A stretch of 20,000 nucleotides of DNA, taken from an uncultured virus (IMG/VR IMGVR_UViG_2814123177_000001) (lineage: Duplodnaviria; Heunggongvirae; Uroviricota; Caudoviricetes). The notes under the pieces are model-generated. The model saw nothing but the letters and a program-made list of their open reading frames with translations, searched no databases and was not told the DNA's origin. Position numbers and translations under genes: made by a program. This document shows, piece after piece, positions 5,948 to 18,858 of the stretch. Position 1 is the stretch's first letter; each line of letters starts with the position of its first letter. The stretch lies in IMG/VR virus record IMGVR_UViG_2814123177_000001; one strand, given 5' to 3'.

Positions 5948-6378
5948 CTTTCGACGTAAGTCGAACGCTGGATTGTTCCCGCGCCCGCTGAACCGCCAAA
6001 TTCTACGTAGTAACCTTCGCAATCAGCCCTGCTGTTCTCGGTCGCGGGGAAAATTGCGCCGGTAATTTGACGGTTTAGCCGACGCGGAGTCGACCTCGTA
6101 TATCCACCGCAGACAGTTGCCTAGACCAATCTCCGGAACATATACGATAATTAATTTACGGCGCAGTAATGAACGTGGCGGAATCGAACCGCCGACCTTT
6201 TCCGGATAAGCTTGCTCTACCACTGAGCTAACGTTCCTGCACCGACCGAGCATAGCGTCCTACGCCCGTCGCAAAGCACGAATCTCTACAGCCGAAACCA
6301 AACCGGCAATTAATTGCGGCAGCTTGGCGACCACTTTACCAAACGACTGTCTTCGTACTCTCCGACCGGCGCAGTTTT
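5948..6378 (-). ncRNA. Candidate large structured non-coding RNA containing a tRNA-like domain
   Basis: GC-rich intergenic region with nested complementary segments: 6365-6378/6050-6063 (13 of 14), 6346-6352/6111-6117, 6308-6315/6149-6156, 6237-6244/6159-6166. Also 6243-6250/6037-6044 (crossing), 6043-6051/5976-5983 and the hairpin 5950-5965. Confidence 0.6.
6170..6237 (-). tRNA. tRNA-like element / pseudo-tRNA (anticodon arm degenerate)
   Basis: GAACGT-TA-GCTC AGTGGTA GAGC-...-AGGTC-GGCGG TTCGATT CCGCC-ACGTTC. D arm and T arm are canonical and the acceptor has 6 bp. Only 14 nt (AGCTTATCCGGAAA) lie where the 17-nt anticodon arm should be, and no CCA is encoded. Confidence 0.75.
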
Positions 6379-6766: not shown

Positions 6767-6939
6767 CCGAGGCGCACCGCCTTTACAACCGGATAGTCGT
6801 GCTCGCCCGTACCTTCGTATAGACGTACCGGATCTTGTGCAATTCGTTGAAATTTTTTCGCTAAATAGGTTTTATCGCCGAATAATCGGGCATATTTATT
6901 AGTAGACGGCTGATATGCCGAATTAGATTTACGTTTCAT
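6763..6939 (-). CDS. Hypothetical protein (58 aa)
   Basis: MKRKSNSAYQPSTNKYARLFGDKTYLAKKFQRIAQDPVRLYEGTGEHDYPVVKAVRLG; GGAGG at 6951-6955. Confidence 0.55.
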   Translation of the reverse strand: MKRKSNSAYQPSTNKYARLFGDKTYLAKKFQRIAQDPVRLYEGTGEHDYPVVKAVRLG

Positions 6940-7092
6940 AGTAATGCGAACCTCCGTTCTCTCTTGCGGAATTTGTCGAAACTTGTTATGATTACACTAT
7001 AGTCAATGGTTACTAAAACTTTGACTTTCGTGTATAATAAAACCGTGGTACGCCACACGACACAGTGCCTAAGTGCCGTGTAGTCCACTAAT

Positions 7093-7692
7093 TTAAAGCG
7101 CAACTAAATAATCGCGGTGTGAACCGTATTGTTTAGAATCGAATTTGCTCGCCAGCTTTTCGAGTTTGCGTATCACCGTTGAATGATGCAGTCCTAAGCT
7201 TTTACCGATTGCCGTCGGTGTAGGTTTCGGATGTTTCAAGAACGTTTTAACTACGCCAATAGTTAATTCGTCCGCGTCTTTCAGCAAGGAGTCGATCAGC
7301 GCCAACTGGTCGGCTTCTTTAATTTCGCTAATTTCTAAGTTTGAGGATTCGTCTTTGATTTCGAATAACTTTCCGTCATCCGATTCTAGTTGGTGTATTT
7401 CGTTCTTCAAGCGATTTCCGTTTTTTAGGTAAACATCGCGTCTTGCTCGCCAAATACTTCGTTTTAACAAATTCGTAAAGTTTCCTCTTCCATCATACAC
7501 TTCGATACACCTTAGTAGAGTATCTTCGTATATTGCTAACGTCTCGTGTTCGTCTGATCGTATCGACTTTGCTACCGAACGAAGCCCTCTCCATTCCGCT
7601 GAAACGATACTATATATCTCGCCAAAGATAATATCGCAATGAGTCTCTTGGTAAGAAATAACTAACTTATTTAATTTTTCGTTTTTATCCAA
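7093..7692 (-). CDS. Phage sigma-70-family (sigma2 + HTH) factor-like protein, 199 aa
   Basis: LLRCIEVYDGRGNFTNLLKRSIWRARRD resembles sigma region 2 (LxxAIxxYDxxxGxFxTY..xxIxxxxxD). C-terminal HTH TPTAIGKSLGLHHSTVIRKL. TTG start with AAAGGGGAG RBS. Confidence 0.75.
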   Translation of the reverse strand: MDKNEKLNKLVISYQETHCDIIFGEIYSIVSAEWRGLRSVAKSIRSDEHETLAIYEDTLLRCIEVYDGRGNFTNLLKRSIWRARRDVYLKNGNRLKNEIHQLESDDGKLFEIKDESSNLEISEIKEADQLALIDSLLKDADELTIGVVKTFLKHPKPTPTAIGKSLGLHHSTVIRKLEKLASKFDSKQYGSHRDYLVAL

Positions 7693-7720
7693 TTTAATAC
7701 TCCCCTTTCATTTACATATA

Positions 7721-7750
7721 ATAATAAGGTTATTAATGAAGTTTCGCGCA
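7721..7750 (-). promoter_or_regulatory. Putative phage-sigma promoter TGCGCG-N16-CTTATTAT upstream of the sigma gene
   Basis: Same architecture as the three units at 18661-18858; preceded by an A-tract. Confidence 0.6.
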
Positions 7751-7849
7751 GCTTTTTTTTAAAAAATTAAATATTTACTTCTTACCGTTATATTACAACA
7801 ATTTCCTTTAATTCCCTTAGTTTGTGACTGATTTTATTTTCTGAAAATA

Positions 7850-7865
7850 GTTCACATAAGTGAAC
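7850..7865. promoter_or_regulatory. Palindromic operator GTTCAC-ATAA-GTGAAC
   Basis: Perfect 6-bp inverted repeat immediately downstream of the aimP terminator; 14/16 identical to 9358-9373. Confidence 0.7.
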
Positions 7866-7867
7866 AT

Positions 7868-7894
7868 AAAAAAAGTCCAATGGGGAATTGGACT
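7868..7894 (-). terminator. Intrinsic terminator after aimP
   Basis: AGTCCAAT-N5-ATTGGACT 8-bp stem followed by a U-tract on the minus strand. Confidence 0.85.
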
Positions 7895-7922
7895 GTTGAT
7901 TTATTATTTATATTAGCGGTTA

Positions 7923-8099
7923 TCAGCCTCCCCCGATACCTCCACCACCGCCAGGAATGTACATAGGTGACATTACTCCCGACTCTACTTGACTGCTCTC
8001 TTCTTGAGATGTAGGATCTGTTTCTTCTGCAGAAACTACTGGTGCTGTTAATCCGATAATAATTGAAAGTGTTAATAGTAATGCTGCTATCTTTTTCAA
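7923..8099 (-). CDS. aimP: AimP-like arbitrium pre-pro-peptide (58 aa)
   Basis: Not in the ORF track. AAGGGAG RBS, TTG start, MKKIAALLLTLSIIIGLTAPVVSA-EETDPTSQEESSQVESGVMSPMYIPGGGGGIGGG: Sec signal peptide with VSA cleavage site, acidic pro-region, Pro/Gly-rich C-terminus. Lies directly downstream of the AimR-like gene. Confidence 0.88.
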   Translation of the reverse strand: MKKIAALLLTLSIIIGLTAPVVSAEETDPTSQEESSQVESGVMSPMYIPGGGGGIGGG

Positions 8100-8112
8100 G
8101 TTATCTTCTCCC

Positions 8113-9273
8113 TTAAATAATATTTAGACTACTTAATAACGGAGAAACGATTTGTTTATGGGAATCATCTAAGTAACTTAAAGGAAGTTTAGCGAATAAT
8201 TTATTACCCGAATTTAGTAATTTCCCAATAGATTTAACTAGATAATCTGTCGACCCTAACGCTAGACCTTTATAGCACTCAAAGAATGGATCCCCTTTAT
8301 CTTCTATACCTTCTAATATCTCTAAGGCCAAATCCGTTTCACCAATCTTCGCATAAAAATGCGCTTGTTCAATCTTAGACGAATCTTTAATTTCAGTTTC
8401 GGTATTTACTCCCCAAAAAGTACGTAAAAAAGGATAGTCATTTTCTAATACATACATTAACTTATCCTCAAGATTATACTCTTGTAAATAACCAACATAT
8501 TCATCTAAGTATTTAACCGCCATTTCGTAATCTTCAAAGAAATACGAAAGGCTCATATTATAATAAGCGAAAAAGTTGAATCTCGCGCATGTTAGTGGTG
8601 AAAGAATTAAAGAATTTAAATAAAATCTAGCTTTCTTCTCTTCTCCTTTTGCAAAAAGATACACATTTGCTAAAATCTCATTTAACCTCAATTGAAATGT
8701 CTCTTTTAAATAATCATTCATTTTCTTACTTTCTAAATTTAAAGTAATTTCCACAGACATCTCAAGAACCCTTTTGTAATGACCTTTCTTATAATACAAA
8801 TATGCAACTAGTATCTTTTTAAAAATCACCATGTCATACGATTTGACTTTAATGCTATTTAATTGCTTTTCTATATCTTTAATTGATAAATCTTGAGTTT
8901 GAAATTTATAGGCGATACTATACACTTGATGCCACTCTTTACAGGTTGTATTCGATGTATCCATAGTCTTCAAAGCTTTGCCTAACTCATCCAATAAACC
9001 ATTAATAGATAAATACTCAAGCGAAAGCCTTGTGTTTTGTTGTTGTCTCTCTACGATAAAAATTTCTATCGCTTCGATCATTAACTTTTGCTCGTTATTT
9101 GGATTCAGAAATTTAAGTGATTTTAATACATTATAGAAAGATAAATCATTTTTATAGTTAAAAAACTTCGAAAATGTACTATGATGAACATTAATATTTG
9201 CTGCTAACTCGGTTGAATTAATATCATATGTAACGCGTTCCATTTCTGATAATAAGAGTCGACGAAGTGGCAT
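8113..9273 (-). CDS. aimR: AimR-like arbitrium receptor (RRNPP family: N-terminal HTH + TPR repeats), 386 aa
   Basis: N-terminal HTH (ELAANINVHHSTFSKFFN), RLSLEYL and KEW..VY motifs, helical TPR-like remainder, typical length, followed by a secreted peptide gene in a prophage. Confidence 0.88.
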   Translation of the reverse strand: MPLRRLLLSEMERVTYDINSTELAANINVHHSTFSKFFNYKNDLSFYNVLKSLKFLNPNNEQKLMIEAIEIFIVERQQQNTRLSLEYLSINGLLDELGKALKTMDTSNTTCKEWHQVYSIAYKFQTQDLSIKDIEKQLNSIKVKSYDMVIFKKILVAYLYYKKGHYKRVLEMSVEITLNLESKKMNDYLKETFQLRLNEILANVYLFAKGEEKKARFYLNSLILSPLTCARFNFFAYYNMSLSYFFEDYEMAVKYLDEYVGYLQEYNLEDKLMYVLENDYPFLRTFWGVNTETEIKDSSKIEQAHFYAKIGETDLALEILEGIEDKGDPFFECYKGLALGSTDYLVKSIGKLLNSGNKLFAKLPLSYLDDSHKQIVSPLLSSLNII

Positions 9274-9343
9274 ATTGTTTATCTCCTTTGTTTTAAATTA
9301 ACCTAGGTAGGTAGAAATAATTACAAATATCTGTTATATTTAT

Positions 9344-9377
9344 AGTATACTACAAATGTTCATATATGTGAACATTT
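9344..9377 (-). promoter_or_regulatory. Putative sigma-A promoter of aimR (TTCACA-N17-TATACT) overlapped by palindrome AAATGTTCA-N6-TGAACATTT
   Basis: -35 at 9372-9367 and -10 at 9349-9344, each 5/6 consensus with a 17-bp spacer; 9-bp inverted repeat at 9354-9377. Confidence 0.65.
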
Positions 9378-9405
9378 TTGTCCAAAAAATTAACGGAGGT
9401 GTAAG

Positions 9406-9606
9406 ATGATTAGTTATGACCCCTTATTTAAAACTTTAAAGTTTAGAAATTTAGTCATTAGTGATTTAAGGAATAAACCTTTACATCCAACTACAATTGC
9501 TAAAATTAATCGCGGTGAATCTATATCCCTTACTAAAGTTGATGAACTATGTAAGGTTTTGAATGTAAAAATACAGGATATAGTAGAAATTATTATAGAA
9601 GATTAA
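9406..9606 (+). CDS. XRE/Cro-like HTH regulator (HTH_26-like), 66 aa
   Basis: MISYDPLFKTL...TTIAKINRGESISLTKVDELCKVLNVKIQDIVE is a classic HTH_26 pattern; GGAGGTG RBS; divergent from aimR. Confidence 0.9.
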   Translation: MISYDPLFKTLKFRNLVISDLRNKPLHPTTIAKINRGESISLTKVDELCKVLNVKIQDIVEIIIED

Positions 9607-9636: not shown

Positions 9637-9867
9637 ACGAAACGGGTCGGAAGGTGCTTGATCGGCGACTATCGTAAGCGTATGAAACTAACGCAAACAC
9701 AACTCGGCGAACTAGTCGGCATGGATAAGTCCCGCGTATCGGATTACGAAAACTTGCGCTACGTAATGAAAGTCGATACCGCGAAACCATTTGCCGATGT
9801 ATTCAATTGCTCCATCGAAGAACTTTACGAATGGGTCGACGACGAATCAAGCGACACGGAAGGGTAA
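9637..9867 (+). CDS. XRE-family HTH regulator (start at ACG 9637 or TTG 9658)
   Basis: LTQTQLGELVGMDKSRVSDYEN...FADVFNCSIEELYEW. The SD GAGGTGA at 9624-9630 lies 6 nt before an in-frame ACG. Confidence 0.85.
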   Translation, partial: TKRVGRCLIGDYRKRMKLTQTQLGELVGMDKSRVSDYENLRYVMKVDTAKPFADVFNCSIEELYEWVDDESSDTEG

Positions 9868-13822: not shown

Positions 13823-14574
13823 TTTCGCATCCCCCTTTGCGATTTCCCTACGAACCCCAACTCGGCACATTGATCGCGCATTCTATCGTAAAGCCTCGCG
13901 TCAAATACTCGTTCCATTTCCACCAATGGCAAGTTCGAAGTGTACACCGTCGGCAATCCGTTCGTCACACGCGCATTAATTACTGCATGTAAGTCGCCGC
14001 GGAATGCCTCGGTTGCATTGCGGACACCAATATCGTCGAGCACTGCGAACGGCGCCGTCTTAGCTGCTTGCATTTGGCGATAATACTGACGGCTTGCCTC
14101 TTCGCCAATGTCGGCCGGAATGTTGCTGCGGTTAAACTCGTTGAACAACGTTTGCCAGGCGTTGACATCGAGCATATAAGCCGGAAGAGAACGCGCCTGC
14201 CTACCGCGCTTTAAACTTCCGATATAATGTTGCGTTAAATATTCATTCAAGATCGCGCTTGCTGTCGTCGTTTTACCCGTGCCAGGACTTGCGCTGTAAA
14301 GATAAAGCGATTTTATGCGGTCGCCAGTCACATCATCGAATTGCCGTTCGAATGTTCCTACGTATGCCTCCACCGATTTATATACTTTCGCTTGTTCCGC
14401 TCTTGCTGGCGAATTCGCTACCGTCACGAGTCTATAATCGTTGGGCACTCCACTCGCTCGCAGTCGGCTGTTCGTCGCGATGAAATGCGGGCACTGGAAA
14501 TTGCACGATTTGCCGTTCGCGACGGTGCAACGGTCGGCTAATACGCATTTGCTTGCGTGATCGTTCGTTGTCAT
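13819..14574 (-). CDS. DnaC/DnaI/IstB-like AAA+ helicase loader
   Basis: Start moved to ATG 14574 (AGGAG RBS). N-terminal Cys cluster, Walker A SPGTGKTT, Walker B VLDDIG, INAR...PTVYTSN, RLYDRM. Confidence 0.9.
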   Translation of the reverse strand: MTTNDHASKCVLADRCTVANGKSCNFQCPHFIATNSRLRASGVPNDYRLVTVANSPARAEQAKVYKSVEAYVGTFERQFDDVTGDRIKSLYLYSASPGTGKTTTASAILNEYLTQHYIGSLKRGRQARSLPAYMLDVNAWQTLFNEFNRSNIPADIGEEASRQYYRQMQAAKTAPFAVLDDIGVRNATEAFRGDLHAVINARVTNGLPTVYTSNLPLVEMERVFDARLYDRMRDQCAELGFVGKSQRGMRK

Positions 14575-15266
14575 TCGCTCACTCTCCTCTCTTTTTCTGC
14601 ATAACATTCATTTACATATCTGATATAATCTTCTTTTGACATATCGTTTTCCTTAGCCAAATAGTCAATTAGTTTATCGAACTTCACAGTTTCAAGACTG
14701 TATCGGGAATTGTAGGATTTAAACCACTCGAAAGGGTTTTTATCACCTTTAGACCTATTTAAAGTATCTTCTATAAGAATCATATTCTCTTTTACTGAAC
14801 CTACTTTGCCCGTAGATAACGTAATGAAATGATCCCAAACTAAATTGGATTCTGCACCGCTCAACGCACACTTCCCTTGGAATGAATCTAAAATATCGCC
14901 TAATTCATTTTTAGTGATGGTCGCTGGCAATCCGAGATGTTTAGCTCTTTTTCTATGTTGAATCGCAGCCATTGCTAAAGGATTTTCTCTTGCCCACTTA
15001 GCAGAAGCATTTCTGCACTTATCGTAGTTTTCGACACGATATTTTTTATGACGTGATTTTTCTTTATCTTCATTAAGTTTCCTGTAAATTGCTTTTGCAG
15101 AACTTTCGCAAGATTTACATCTGGCATTTCGACCACCAACCCCTAATCTGTTTCGATAAAAATCGAATAAAGGTTTTGTTTCGTTGCAAACAGTACACAT
15201 TTTAGCATTGAATAGGTCACCATCTATATATAACTTTACAATTTTATGCGGGGAACCTGCGGGCAA
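14571..15266 (-). CDS. HNH endonuclease with N-terminal zinc finger (putative homing endonuclease)
   Basis: KMCTVC...F...RCKSC zinc finger; CALSG...DHFI.....G...N........NRSKGDK HNH core; visibly more AT-rich than its neighbours. Confidence 0.85.
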   Translation of the reverse strand: MPAGSPHKIVKLYIDGDLFNAKMCTVCNETKPLFDFYRNRLGVGGRNARCKSCESSAKAIYRKLNEDKEKSRHKKYRVENYDKCRNASAKWARENPLAMAAIQHRKRAKHLGLPATITKNELGDILDSFQGKCALSGAESNLVWDHFITLSTGKVGSVKENMILIEDTLNRSKGDKNPFEWFKSYNSRYSLETVKFDKLIDYLAKENDMSKEDYIRYVNECYAEKERRVSE

Positions 15267-18660: not shown

Positions 18661-18858
18661 CTTCCGTGTGACTTAACGTTCTCAATTAATAATACCCGCG
18701 CCATTTTAAAGTCGCGCAGTTTTGCGGAAAATATCTTCCGTGTGACTCTCTACTTAGTTTGACGCACCTGAATAACTTTTCGCGCACCAATTTCGAAATT
18801 AACTTCCGTGTGATTTACGCTACACTATATAGTAAGGATACCGAATCAATCTAGCGCA
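18661..18858 (-). promoter_or_regulatory. Three tandem ~70-bp promoter/operator units: TGCGC(G/T)-N16-(-10 box)...TCACACGGAAG
   Basis: CTTCCGTGTGA (+ strand) at 18661, 18735 and 18803; TGCGC(G/T) (minus strand) starting at 18718, 18786 and 18858. Confidence 0.7.

What the first reader, a model, noticed from the sequence alone, without database searches (positions are those of the whole stretch)
7093..9606. Arbitrium-like peptide system wired directly to a phage sigma factor
Seen: aimR-like gene, aimP-like gene, terminator, palindrome (7850-7865), then a sigma-70-like gene with no credible ORF in between. Established: in phi3T/SPbeta-type systems peptide-free AimR activates the locus just downstream of aimP (aimX), which in characterised cases is a small protein, an ncRNA or an anti-repressor. 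Inference: here the aimX position holds a dedicated sigma factor. Peptide sensing would then switch the lytic programme on positively through RNA polymerase specificity rather than by relieving a repressor. I do not know of a characterised arbitrium output of this kind.
Basis: partly seen in the sequence, partly recalled or inferred. Interest (0 to 1): 0.85.

Follow-up and report, generated by a model that had tools for sequence, protein, structure and literature searches.

The report
Phage peptide switch controlling sigma factor
In this dormant Bacillus-type phage the peptide receptor AimR appears to switch on the phage's own sigma factor instead of the usual small aimX gene, and that sigma factor appears in turn to switch on the signal-peptide gene from a promoter hidden inside the receptor gene, a feedback loop that is predicted from sequence only.

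Summary
In detail: aimR (passes NF038310), aimP, a terminator and a sigma-70-fold gene follow each other with no credible aimX. The order recurs in 59 of 88 (redundant) related loci; 25 carry the sigma without aimR. This scan has noted the architecture before on at least 9 other genomes; I found no paper on it (8 searches; the 2019 clade survey was not available).

Added here, by comparison only:
(1) The 7850-7865 palindrome tracks the XRE gene at 9406, not AimR.
(2) An SPbeta-shaped long-spacer repeat ends 26 nt before a sigmaA-type -10 in 20 of 30 loci, at 5-47 nt from the terminator. This favours ordinary activation over antitermination.
(3) A phage-specific promoter (TGYGCGA-N15-variable -10) lies before the sigma gene, the replication operon and a phoH-like gene, and also inside aimR, pointing at aimP. 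The internal copy follows each phage's own promoter variant, even changing AimR residues; 3 of 3 held-out loci obey points 2 and 3.

Model: peptide-free AimR turns on sigma; sigma amplifies itself, starts replication genes and makes the peptide. Nothing is shown experimentally. New variant of arbitrium.

The parts
7093..7692 (-). Phage sigma-70-family factor (sigma2 plus sigma4, ECF-sized, 199 aa): the gene in the aimX position
   Evidence: AF2 pLDDT 81.0; VIA-align SigW 5wuq Z 9.2, rmsd 2.9 over 90 residues (4-98), SigA region 4 6ono Z 7.4, rmsd 2.5 over 65 (127-191); TIGR02937 below cut-off
7721..7750 (-). Predicted phage-sigma self-promoter: -35 TGCGCGA (7750-7744), -10 CTTATTAT (7728-7721)
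   Evidence: motif before the sigma start in 70 of 75 dereplicated loci, with and without aimR; coordinates
7790..7795 (-). Predicted sigmaA-type -10 (TAATAT) of an activator-dependent promoter with a poor -35
   Evidence: forward extended -10 in 22 of 27 aimR loci and 0 of 17 loci without aimR; picked by hand here, the script chose TGTAAT 2 nt upstream
7822..7857 (.). Candidate AimR box ATGTGA-N24-TCACAA (5 of 6 pairs); the proximal arm ends 26 nt before the -10
   Evidence: same register in 20 of 30 aimR loci; TGTGA-N24-TCACA occurs once in the phage contig
7849..7866 (.).
7867..7894 (-). Intrinsic terminator after aimP (8-bp stem plus U-run)
7923..8099 (-). aimP, 58-aa secreted pro-peptide; mature peptide probably the Gly-rich C-terminus, boundaries not determined
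   Evidence: position and RBS
8113..9273 (-). aimR, arbitrium receptor (N-terminal HTH plus TPR), 386 aa
8560..8589 (-). Predicted phage-sigma promoter inside the aimR reading frame (TGCGCGA-N15-CTTATTAT, encoding CARFNFFAYY), 490 nt before the aimP start
9344..9372 (-). Predicted sigmaA promoter of aimR (TTCACA-17-TATACT, 10 of 12)
9357..9374 (.). Palindrome O1 (TGTTCA-N6-TGAACA): candidate XreA operator covering the aimR -35, in the aimR/xreA divergent region
9406..9606 (+). xreA, 66-aa HTH_26 protein; its presence tracks the palindromes
9658..9867 (+). xreB, 69-aa HTH_3 protein; also present in many relatives without aimR
18689..18718 (-). Predicted phage-sigma promoter (TGCGCGA-N15-GGTATTAT), 67 nt before the first gene of the replication operon (18651)
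18757..18786 (-). Second, tandem phage-sigma promoter with another -10 variant (CGTCAAAC)

Best explanation
A genuine arbitrium module whose output is the phage's own sigma factor. (1) Host sigmaA RNA polymerase makes aimR from the promoter at 9372-9344 [predicted]. (2) Peptide-free AimR binds the long-spacer box 7857-7822 and activates a sigmaA promoter with a good -10 (7795-7790) and a poor -35, directly upstream of the sigma gene [inferred from fixed geometry; about 0.65 against antitermination]. (3) The sigma factor reads TGYGCGA-N15-(variable -10) promoters: before its own gene (positive feedback, commitment), before the replication operon, before the phoH-like gene, and inside aimR to drive aimP up to the terminator [inferred from co-variation; about 0.75]. 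Peptide is therefore made by cells that have entered the replicative programme. (4) Imported peptide inactivates AimR [established for other AimRs, assumed here], sigma is not made, and the phage stays dormant. (5) XreA binds O1 over the aimR -35 and O2 over the distal arm of the AimR box and damps or blocks the switch [inferred from co-occurrence; about 0.6]. Shown: gene identities, order, folds, motif positions and their co-variation. Inferred: every binding and transcription step. That the sigma gene is the AimR-controlled output I put at about 0.8; the confidence below is for steps 2-4 together.
For: Fold: 17 of the first 19 VIA-align rows are sigma factors (three named as such from my own knowledge) and cover both domains. 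Synteny: aimR lies upstream of the sigma gene in 61 of 88 loci, directly in 59, and in 11 of 11 sigma hits among 269 same-family genomes. Box: 6-bp arms with a 24-26 spacer, at least 5 of 6 pairs, ending 26 nt before the -10 in 20 of 30 loci; shuffles give mean 0.95, max 5 in 2000. Anchored on the terminator the best offset gives 7 of 30, and the distance runs from 5 to 47 nt. SPbeta's box is 6-25-6 (PMC9232636, passages) and has no -10 at +26. The forward -10 is seen in 22 of 27 aimR loci and 0 of 17 others. Promoter set: the phage's own variant recurs at the same functional places in G002 (4 sites), G005 (4) and aimR-less G003 (5), and in 268TH002 (3 sites, with a deviant motif, one inside aimR at a non-homologous place). 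All 37 sigmas whose recognition helix starts His-His have G at position 4 of the -35; 6 of 7 with other residues do not. Internal site: beats synonymous-codon shuffles (at most 3 of 100) in 19 of 27; matches the phage's own pre-sigma site at -35/-10 positions (13.5 of 17 against 10.5 +/- 0.3 permuted) but not in the spacer (4.96 against 4.89); Ala codon is GCG in 20 of 21 against 26% gene-wide; absent in 6 of 6 outgroup AimRs. Two well-supported AimR clades each hold several -10 variants that follow the sigma tree. Held-out L154, L157, L159: internal site 17, 16, 16 of 17 and box 6, 5, 6 of 6.
Against: No transcript, binding or genetic data; public runs gave only contigs and no information on expression. 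The sigma call rests on middling Z-scores for a helical protein (best Z 10.1; the tool warns below about 13), Foldseek found nothing at E <= 0.001 and no family cut-off is reached. The window itself counted as a miss (3 of 6) in the automatic box test and passes only with the hand-chosen -10; 10 of 30 loci fail it. In xreA loci the distal arm overlaps the palindrome, so part of the repeat could be a second XreA half-site. The internal promoter is missing in L022 and L055 and partial in L059; L031 breaks the helix/-35 rule. Permutation tests are not corrected for kinship, and the motifs were first seen by eye in these same loci. The two characterised AimRs tested for this act as antiterminators (PMC10769878, passages). 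The sigma works without aimR in 25 loci, so it does not need AimR in principle.
Confidence: 0.58

Rival explanations
1. Same output, SPbeta-type mechanism: AimR bound at 7857-7822 antiterminates at 7894-7867, so transcripts from the aimR promoter or the internal sigma promoter read through aimP into the sigma gene. The downstream -10 is secondary. This can coexist with activation.
For: The order terminator, then AimR box, then output gene is that of phi3T and SPbeta, where antitermination was shown (PMC10769878, passages). Seven of 30 loci share an 18-nt terminator-to-box distance. A sigma promoter upstream of aimP would make a neat AimR-gated positive loop.
Against: In phi3T a -8 or +69 bp change in terminator-to-box distance abolished function and no promoter lay downstream. 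Here that distance varies from 5 to 47 nt while the distance to a -10 is fixed at 26, and the -10 exists only in aimR loci (22 of 27 against 0 of 17).
Confidence: 0.2
2. The sigma gene is only the ancestral neighbour. It is governed by XreA/XreB and by itself, and AimR acts through a short RNA or micro-peptide in 7700-7866, or at sites elsewhere.
For: The order primase, xre, sigma exists without aimR in 25 of 88 loci. AimX can be 29 aa or an RNA (10.1101/2025.11.23.689978). A 16-codon ATG frame lies at 7817-7867, and 7780-7925 folds with z -3.15.
Against: No RBS-led ORF is conserved in the interval (output partly cut). No Rfam match there. The predicted leader 7690-7790 is unstructured (z +0.78). 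The fold signal comes from the terminator and palindrome. The box points at a promoter about 90 nt before the sigma start, and the box motif occurs once in the phage.
Confidence: 0.12
3. The 199-aa protein is a sigma-derived DNA-binding activator rather than an RNA polymerase subunit, or its output favours establishment of the dormant plasmid state rather than lysis.
For: Below all family cut-offs; members hit HTH families, not Pfam sigma regions; Foldseek E >= 0.016. No site before late genes. The contig carries plasmid-type replication and partition genes.
Against: Both sigma2 and sigma4 folds are matched in the right order. The target motif is bipartite, directional and fixed in spacing, with -35 changes tracking the sigma4 helix. 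Targets head the helicase-loader, helicase and primase operon, which serves lytic replication.
Confidence: 0.1

Closest known systems
SPbeta / phi3T arbitrium (aimR-aimP-terminator-AimR box-aimX; PMC10769878, PMC9232636)
   Same: AimR-family receptor, adjacent secreted pro-peptide, intrinsic terminator, then a long-spacer inverted repeat of about 36-37 bp, then the output gene.
   Different: The output is a 199-aa sigma-fold protein, not a MazE-like peptide or RNA. A -10 element lies at fixed distance after the box. aimP appears to be read from a phage-sigma promoter. No sroA-F operon follows. The phage is about 61 kb, not SPbeta-like.
Extended arbitrium (aimR-aimP-aimX with convergent aimC, then aimL; phi106, phiW23, Wbeta, BMBtp14, Waukesha92; 10.1101/2025.11.23.689978)
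   Same: Two small HTH genes belong to the module, and the lytic output leads to replication genes.
   Different: No convergent aimC downstream of aimP and no antirepressor ORF. The two HTH genes (66 and 69 aa) lie upstream of aimR, divergently, both on one strand. This locus would fall in that paper's uncharacterised 'generic RP' class.
Cultured phages 268TH002/268TH007 and phi18-2 (ON210835, ON210834, OR208547)
   Same: Same order primase, xre, xre, aimR, sigma. ON210835 annotates gp51 as AimR and gp52 as sigma factor. aimP is unannotated but present.
   Different: Sigma only 26% identical, with its own deviant promoter. The genome announcement (PMC9476937) does not discuss arbitrium or the sigma.
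Phage-encoded sigma factors and self-regulating ECF sigma factors (SPO1 middle/late sigmas, sporulation-like phage sigmas, PMC9429907; ECF autoregulation recalled)
   Same: Two-domain sigma that appears to read a promoter before its own gene and a small set of phage promoters.
   Different: Not sporulation-like by the families tested. No anti-sigma gene next to it. Control appears to come from a peptide receptor; PMC9429907 has no mention of arbitrium.

Membership tests
Arbitrium system (general) | AimR-family HTH-TPR receptor | tested here: met
   NF038310 and PF22871 above cut-off; solved AimR chains at E 6e-20
Arbitrium system (general) | Adjacent gene for a small secreted pro-peptide | tested here: met
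   58-aa ORF 13 nt after aimR with RBS; signal-peptide character read by eye, no SignalP run
Arbitrium system (general) | Mature peptide binds AimR and blocks DNA binding | not testable with these tools
   needs binding assays; mature peptide boundaries unknown
Arbitrium system (general) | Long-spacer inverted-repeat AimR box downstream of the aimP terminator | tested here: met
   family-wide 20 of 30; in the window 5 of 6 pairs with a hand-chosen -10; binding not shown
Arbitrium system (general) | Temperate phage or mobile element context | tested here: met
   60.9-kb contig with integrase, resolvase, partition and replication genes; relative 268TH002 described as temperate
SPbeta-like arbitrium | Small aimX (peptide or RNA) followed by the sroA-F (yopM-R) operon | tested here: not met
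   the next gene is the sigma factor, followed by small ORFs and the SSB/polymerase block
SPbeta-like arbitrium | AimR acts by antitermination at fixed terminator-to-box distance | tested here: inconclusive
   distance varies 5-47 nt across relatives, which argues against but does not exclude it
Extended arbitrium (aimX/aimC/aimL) | Convergent 80-140-aa HTH repressor aimC directly downstream of aimP, then aimL | tested here: not met
   no such ORF between 7093 and 7922
Extended arbitrium (aimX/aimC/aimL) | 29-80-aa antirepressor ORF after aimP | tested here: not met
   no RBS-led ORF; longest start-bearing frame seen is 16 codons
Sigma-70 family (ECF-like) | Sigma2 fold followed by sigma4 HTH | tested here: met
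   VIA-align matches to both domains, Z 9.2 and 7.4; middling Z for a helical protein
Sigma-70 family (ECF-like) | Score above a curated sigma-70 family cut-off | tested here: not met
   TIGR02937 20 bits against 42.9; no Pfam sigma region in 57 members. Divergence is expected for phage sigmas (PMC9429907)
Sigma-70 family (ECF-like) | Bipartite -35/-10 target with fixed spacing, including a self-promoter | tested here: met
   predicted only
Sigma-70 family (ECF-like) | Binds core RNA polymerase and initiates transcription | not testable with these tools
   needs in vitro transcription or pull-down

The most novel reading that the evidence does not exclude
A closed arbitrium loop built on a sigma factor: AimR works as an ordinary transcription activator (not an antiterminator) of the phage sigma gene, and that sigma factor transcribes aimP from a promoter embedded in the aimR reading frame, so that only cells committed to replication emit the peptide. 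The embedded promoter co-evolves with sigma specificity strongly enough to rewrite residues of the receptor (Ala to Pro; AYY to ASY, ATY, MYH, AFD).
Probability: 0.5. Interest if true: 0.85.

Novelty: new variant of a known kind. Interest (0 to 1): 0.72.

Why it matters
A 2025 survey lists three aimX mechanisms and leaves the systems outside the extended and SPbeta-like layouts unexplained (10.1101/2025.11.23.689978). This family supplies a candidate fourth output that needs no repressor to be relieved. It also makes two open questions testable: whether AimR can act as an ordinary activator, and how peptide production is tied to the lytic decision. Each predicted site has coordinates. A cultured B. 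subtilis phage (268TH002) carries the same wiring with only three copies of its sigma promoter, so the model can be tested with reporters in a laboratory strain.

Tried and rejected
Palindrome 7850-7865 as the AimR operator: rejected. The spacer is 6 nt, whereas AimR boxes have about 25, and it co-occurs with xreA.

LexA (GAAC-N4-GTTC) control at the switch: no exact box in the window's switch region; 11 of 75 regions had a one-mismatch copy, at no common place.

Internal aimR site as a protein constraint or a recent duplication: rejected by GCG codon bias, outgroups and the lack of spacer similarity.

A structured aimX RNA in the leader: no Rfam hit, no folding excess for 7690-7790.

A general weight matrix did not recover the promoters of G004, Mgbh1 or 268TH002; own-site searches did.

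A bare 7-mer pattern search was not informative, the reversed control being about as frequent.

Single-sequence PDB search of the sigma gave nothing below E 0.077; the profile search's best hit was an ECF SigE at E 0.0075, among annexin noise.

Public runs: only contigs, two RNA-labelled runs covering about 250 nt of the sigma 3' end; no conclusion on expression.

Sigma-RNA polymerase complex: not modelled, so core binding remains open.

The 2019 clade survey (10.1016/j.chom.2019.03.017) is not held; I did not assign an AimR clade number.

Earlier-finding look-ups by sequence and place returned nothing; the word search for a promoter inside aimR driving aimP returned nothing.

Dropped rows: L037 and L044 (mis-picked sites, near-duplicates of L034) from motif counts; L059 from the matrix; L050 from the xreA count (xreA lies outside the locus); L016, L066, L074 (cut ends).
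Full report
CONTEXT. The window is G000:C26:40904-60903, in a 60,934-nt contig of 43.6% GC within a genome whose other large contigs are 33-38%. It holds an integrase, helicase loader, helicase, primase and DNA polymerase A. The rest of the contig has head and tail genes (read from translations), a resolvase, an actin-like partition protein and a Rep-like HTH protein, so it is probably a plasmid-type prophage. The switch region 7.5-9.5 kb is 28-33% GC against 41-51% in most flanking windows.

OBSERVATION. aimR passes NF038310 and PF22871 and matches solved AimR chains. No RBS-led ORF lies between aimP and the next gene; a 16-codon frame without RBS remains.

THE 199-AA PROTEIN. It has 57 homologues at E <= 0.001 among 304 candidates, several auto-named sigma-70. 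No family cut-off is reached. The AF2 model (pLDDT 81.0, pTM 0.64) gave no Foldseek match at E <= 0.001. In VIA-align, 17 of the first 19 rows are sigma factors: SigW over residues 4-98 (Z 9.2, rmsd 2.9) and SigA region 4 over 127-191 (Z 7.4, rmsd 2.5). These Z values are middling for a helical protein; the weight comes from both domains matching in order and from the promoter evidence below.

SYNTENY. Of 88 loci found with the sigma alignment (redundant, many B. cereus-group near-copies), 61 have aimR upstream, 25 do not and 2 are cut. In 59 of the 61 the order is direct; L037 and L050 carry insertions, in L050 with a transposase-like ORF (label recalled). Among 269 same-family genomes, 11 of 11 sigma hits have aimR within 1.5 kb. 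Loci without aimR are mostly Paenibacillaceae phages on a separate sigma branch, plus L019, which lacks the cassette inside the aimR branch. The cultured phages 268TH002 and phi18-2 have the arrangement; Mgbh1 lacks aimR. Six other AimR loci examined have aimX- or aimC-type neighbours, not a sigma.

THE PALINDROME. The consensus TGTTYA-N6-TRAACA scores at least 10 of 12 upstream of aimR in 41 of 45 loci with xreA and in 0 of 8 aimR loci without it; downstream of aimR, in 38 of 45 and 1 of 8. The eight belong to two or three lineages, and three of them carry a different HTH gene there. It is best read as the XreA operator. O1 covers the predicted aimR -35; O2 overlaps the distal arm of the box described next.

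THE AimR BOX. SPbeta AimR binds 6-bp arms 25 bp apart (PMC9232636, passages). Anchoring 30 aimR loci on their best extended -10, a repeat of that shape ends exactly 26 nt before the -10 in 20 of 30; other offsets give at most 4, apart from 12 at 25 nt, which are the same repeats. Shuffles give 0.95 on average. The -35 positions match TTGACA at no more than 3 of 6 in 29 of 30. The distance to the terminator varies from 5 to 47 nt. The forward -10 is present in 22 of 27 aimR loci and 0 of 17 others. In phi3T the terminator distance is critical and no downstream promoter exists (PMC10769878, passages), so this family looks like ordinary activation. The repeat also stands in xreA-less L083 and L085 (5 of 6), so it is not merely XreA half-sites. 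The window's own box is ATGTGA-N24-TCACAA; the script scored it a miss because it chose a -10 two bases upstream.

THE SIGMA PROMOTER. A TGYGCGA-type element lies 42-68 nt before the sigma start in 70 of 75 dereplicated loci, with or without aimR (pattern derived from these loci). A strict pattern hits this contig 6 times (Markov mean 0.42, max 2 in 50) and the other 5.04 Mb 7 times. With a leave-one-out matrix, 7 of 9 hits in the contig fall at four places: before the replication operon (two), inside aimR, before sigma, and before a phoH-like gene (three; PF02562). G002 and G005 show their own variant at four such places; aimR-less G003 shows its variant five times. 268TH002 has a deviant motif at three sites only, and Mgbh1 and G004 have three strong sites each. 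Deviant -35 elements go with a changed sigma4 recognition helix in 6 of 7 cases, L031 being the exception. No site precedes the terminase or structural genes of this phage, so late activation would be indirect.

THE PROMOTER INSIDE aimR. The copy at 8589-8560 points at aimP, 490 nt downstream. Across 27 dereplicated loci the best matrix score averages 15.4 in aimR sense, 7.0 antisense and 9.7 in primase. It beats synonymous shuffles in 19 of 27. It matches the same phage's pre-sigma site at -35/-10 positions but not in the spacer, uses GCG in 20 of 21 Ala codons, and is absent from 6 of 6 outgroup AimRs (not corrected for kinship). Within single AimR clades the variant follows the sigma tree (the AimR tree is the quick version). 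AimR residues change with it: Pro where the promoter is TGTCCGA (L083, and held-out L159). In 268TH002 the site sits at a different place in aimR. It is missing in L022 and L055. Three loci not used in any derivation (L154, L157, L159) show both the internal site and the box.

MECHANISM. See Best explanation. Gene identities, order, folds and motif co-variation are computed; each binding and transcription step is inferred. The main rival keeps the sigma output but uses antitermination.

LITERATURE. Eight searches listed no paper on a sigma-factor output, judged from listings and the papers opened. Seen: 10.1101/2025.11.23.689978 parts 1-4 of 7 plus passages, with no occurrence of 'sigma' in the main text (supplements closed); passages of PMC10769878, PMC9232636, 10.1101/2021.09.20.460909, 10.1101/2025.10.13.681967, PMC9429907 and PMC13389391; PMC9476937 part 1 of 2. 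The 2019 clade survey is not held and may picture this gene order. Most subscription papers are not searchable here.

EARLIER SCAN NOTES. Ten notes on at least 9 other genomes match the search words, and most of those shown describe the same architecture. I saw them after the motif analyses were done; they are not independent support. The lines shown do not mention the promoter inside aimR or the XreA assignment, but I saw only a few lines of each.

VERDICT. Real, conserved, and a new variant of arbitrium: interest 0.72.

Noticed in passing
window 6169-6237 (-): tRNA-like element: Rfam RF00005 39.5 bits (gathering 29), not called by ARAGORN, not found in 14 related loci; L076 has a skipping-rope RNA (RF02924) at a similar place downstream of the sigma gene.
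   Followed up: partly
window 18689-18786 and G000:C26:36360-36487: The tandem sigma promoters carry -10 variants typical of other lineages (CGTCAAAC, GGTATTAT, TGTATCAC) beside the phage's own, as if target operons keep sites for several swappable sigma cassettes.
   Followed up: partly
G000:C1:30826 (L166): A close match to this phage's sigma promoter with an RBS lies in what looks like another prophage in the host chromosome, before a small membrane-like ORF; possible cross-activation, or chance (7 strict hits in 5.04 Mb).
   Followed up: partly
G000:C26:188-6691 (L164): Rep-like HTH_36 protein, two more XRE genes, a YolD-like gene with a LexA-type box at its start (C26:2189) and an actin-like partition gene: probable plasmid prophage with a second regulatory region.
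   Followed up: partly
window 6947-6960: Exact GAAC-N4-GTTC (LexA-type) sequence overlapping the RBS of the small ORF that starts at 6939; may be an RBS by-product.
   Followed up: no
L013, L018 (aimP): Pro-peptides with the candidate mature peptide written twice (KDPGTGGL; YDPGDGPIGG).
   Followed up: no
L062, L067, L068, L091: Loci without aimR that have about 2 kb of other DNA between primase and the xre-sigma pair; might hold another sensing module (compare note e1-5918734).
   Followed up: no
L014, L016, L023, L033, L034 and others: In many relatives the aimP start overlaps the aimR stop, so aimP is left unannotated, as in ON210835.
   Followed up: partly
window 14571-15266 (-): 231-aa Cys-rich ORF, HNH-endonuclease-like by eye, between replication genes; no family above cut-off.
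   Followed up: no
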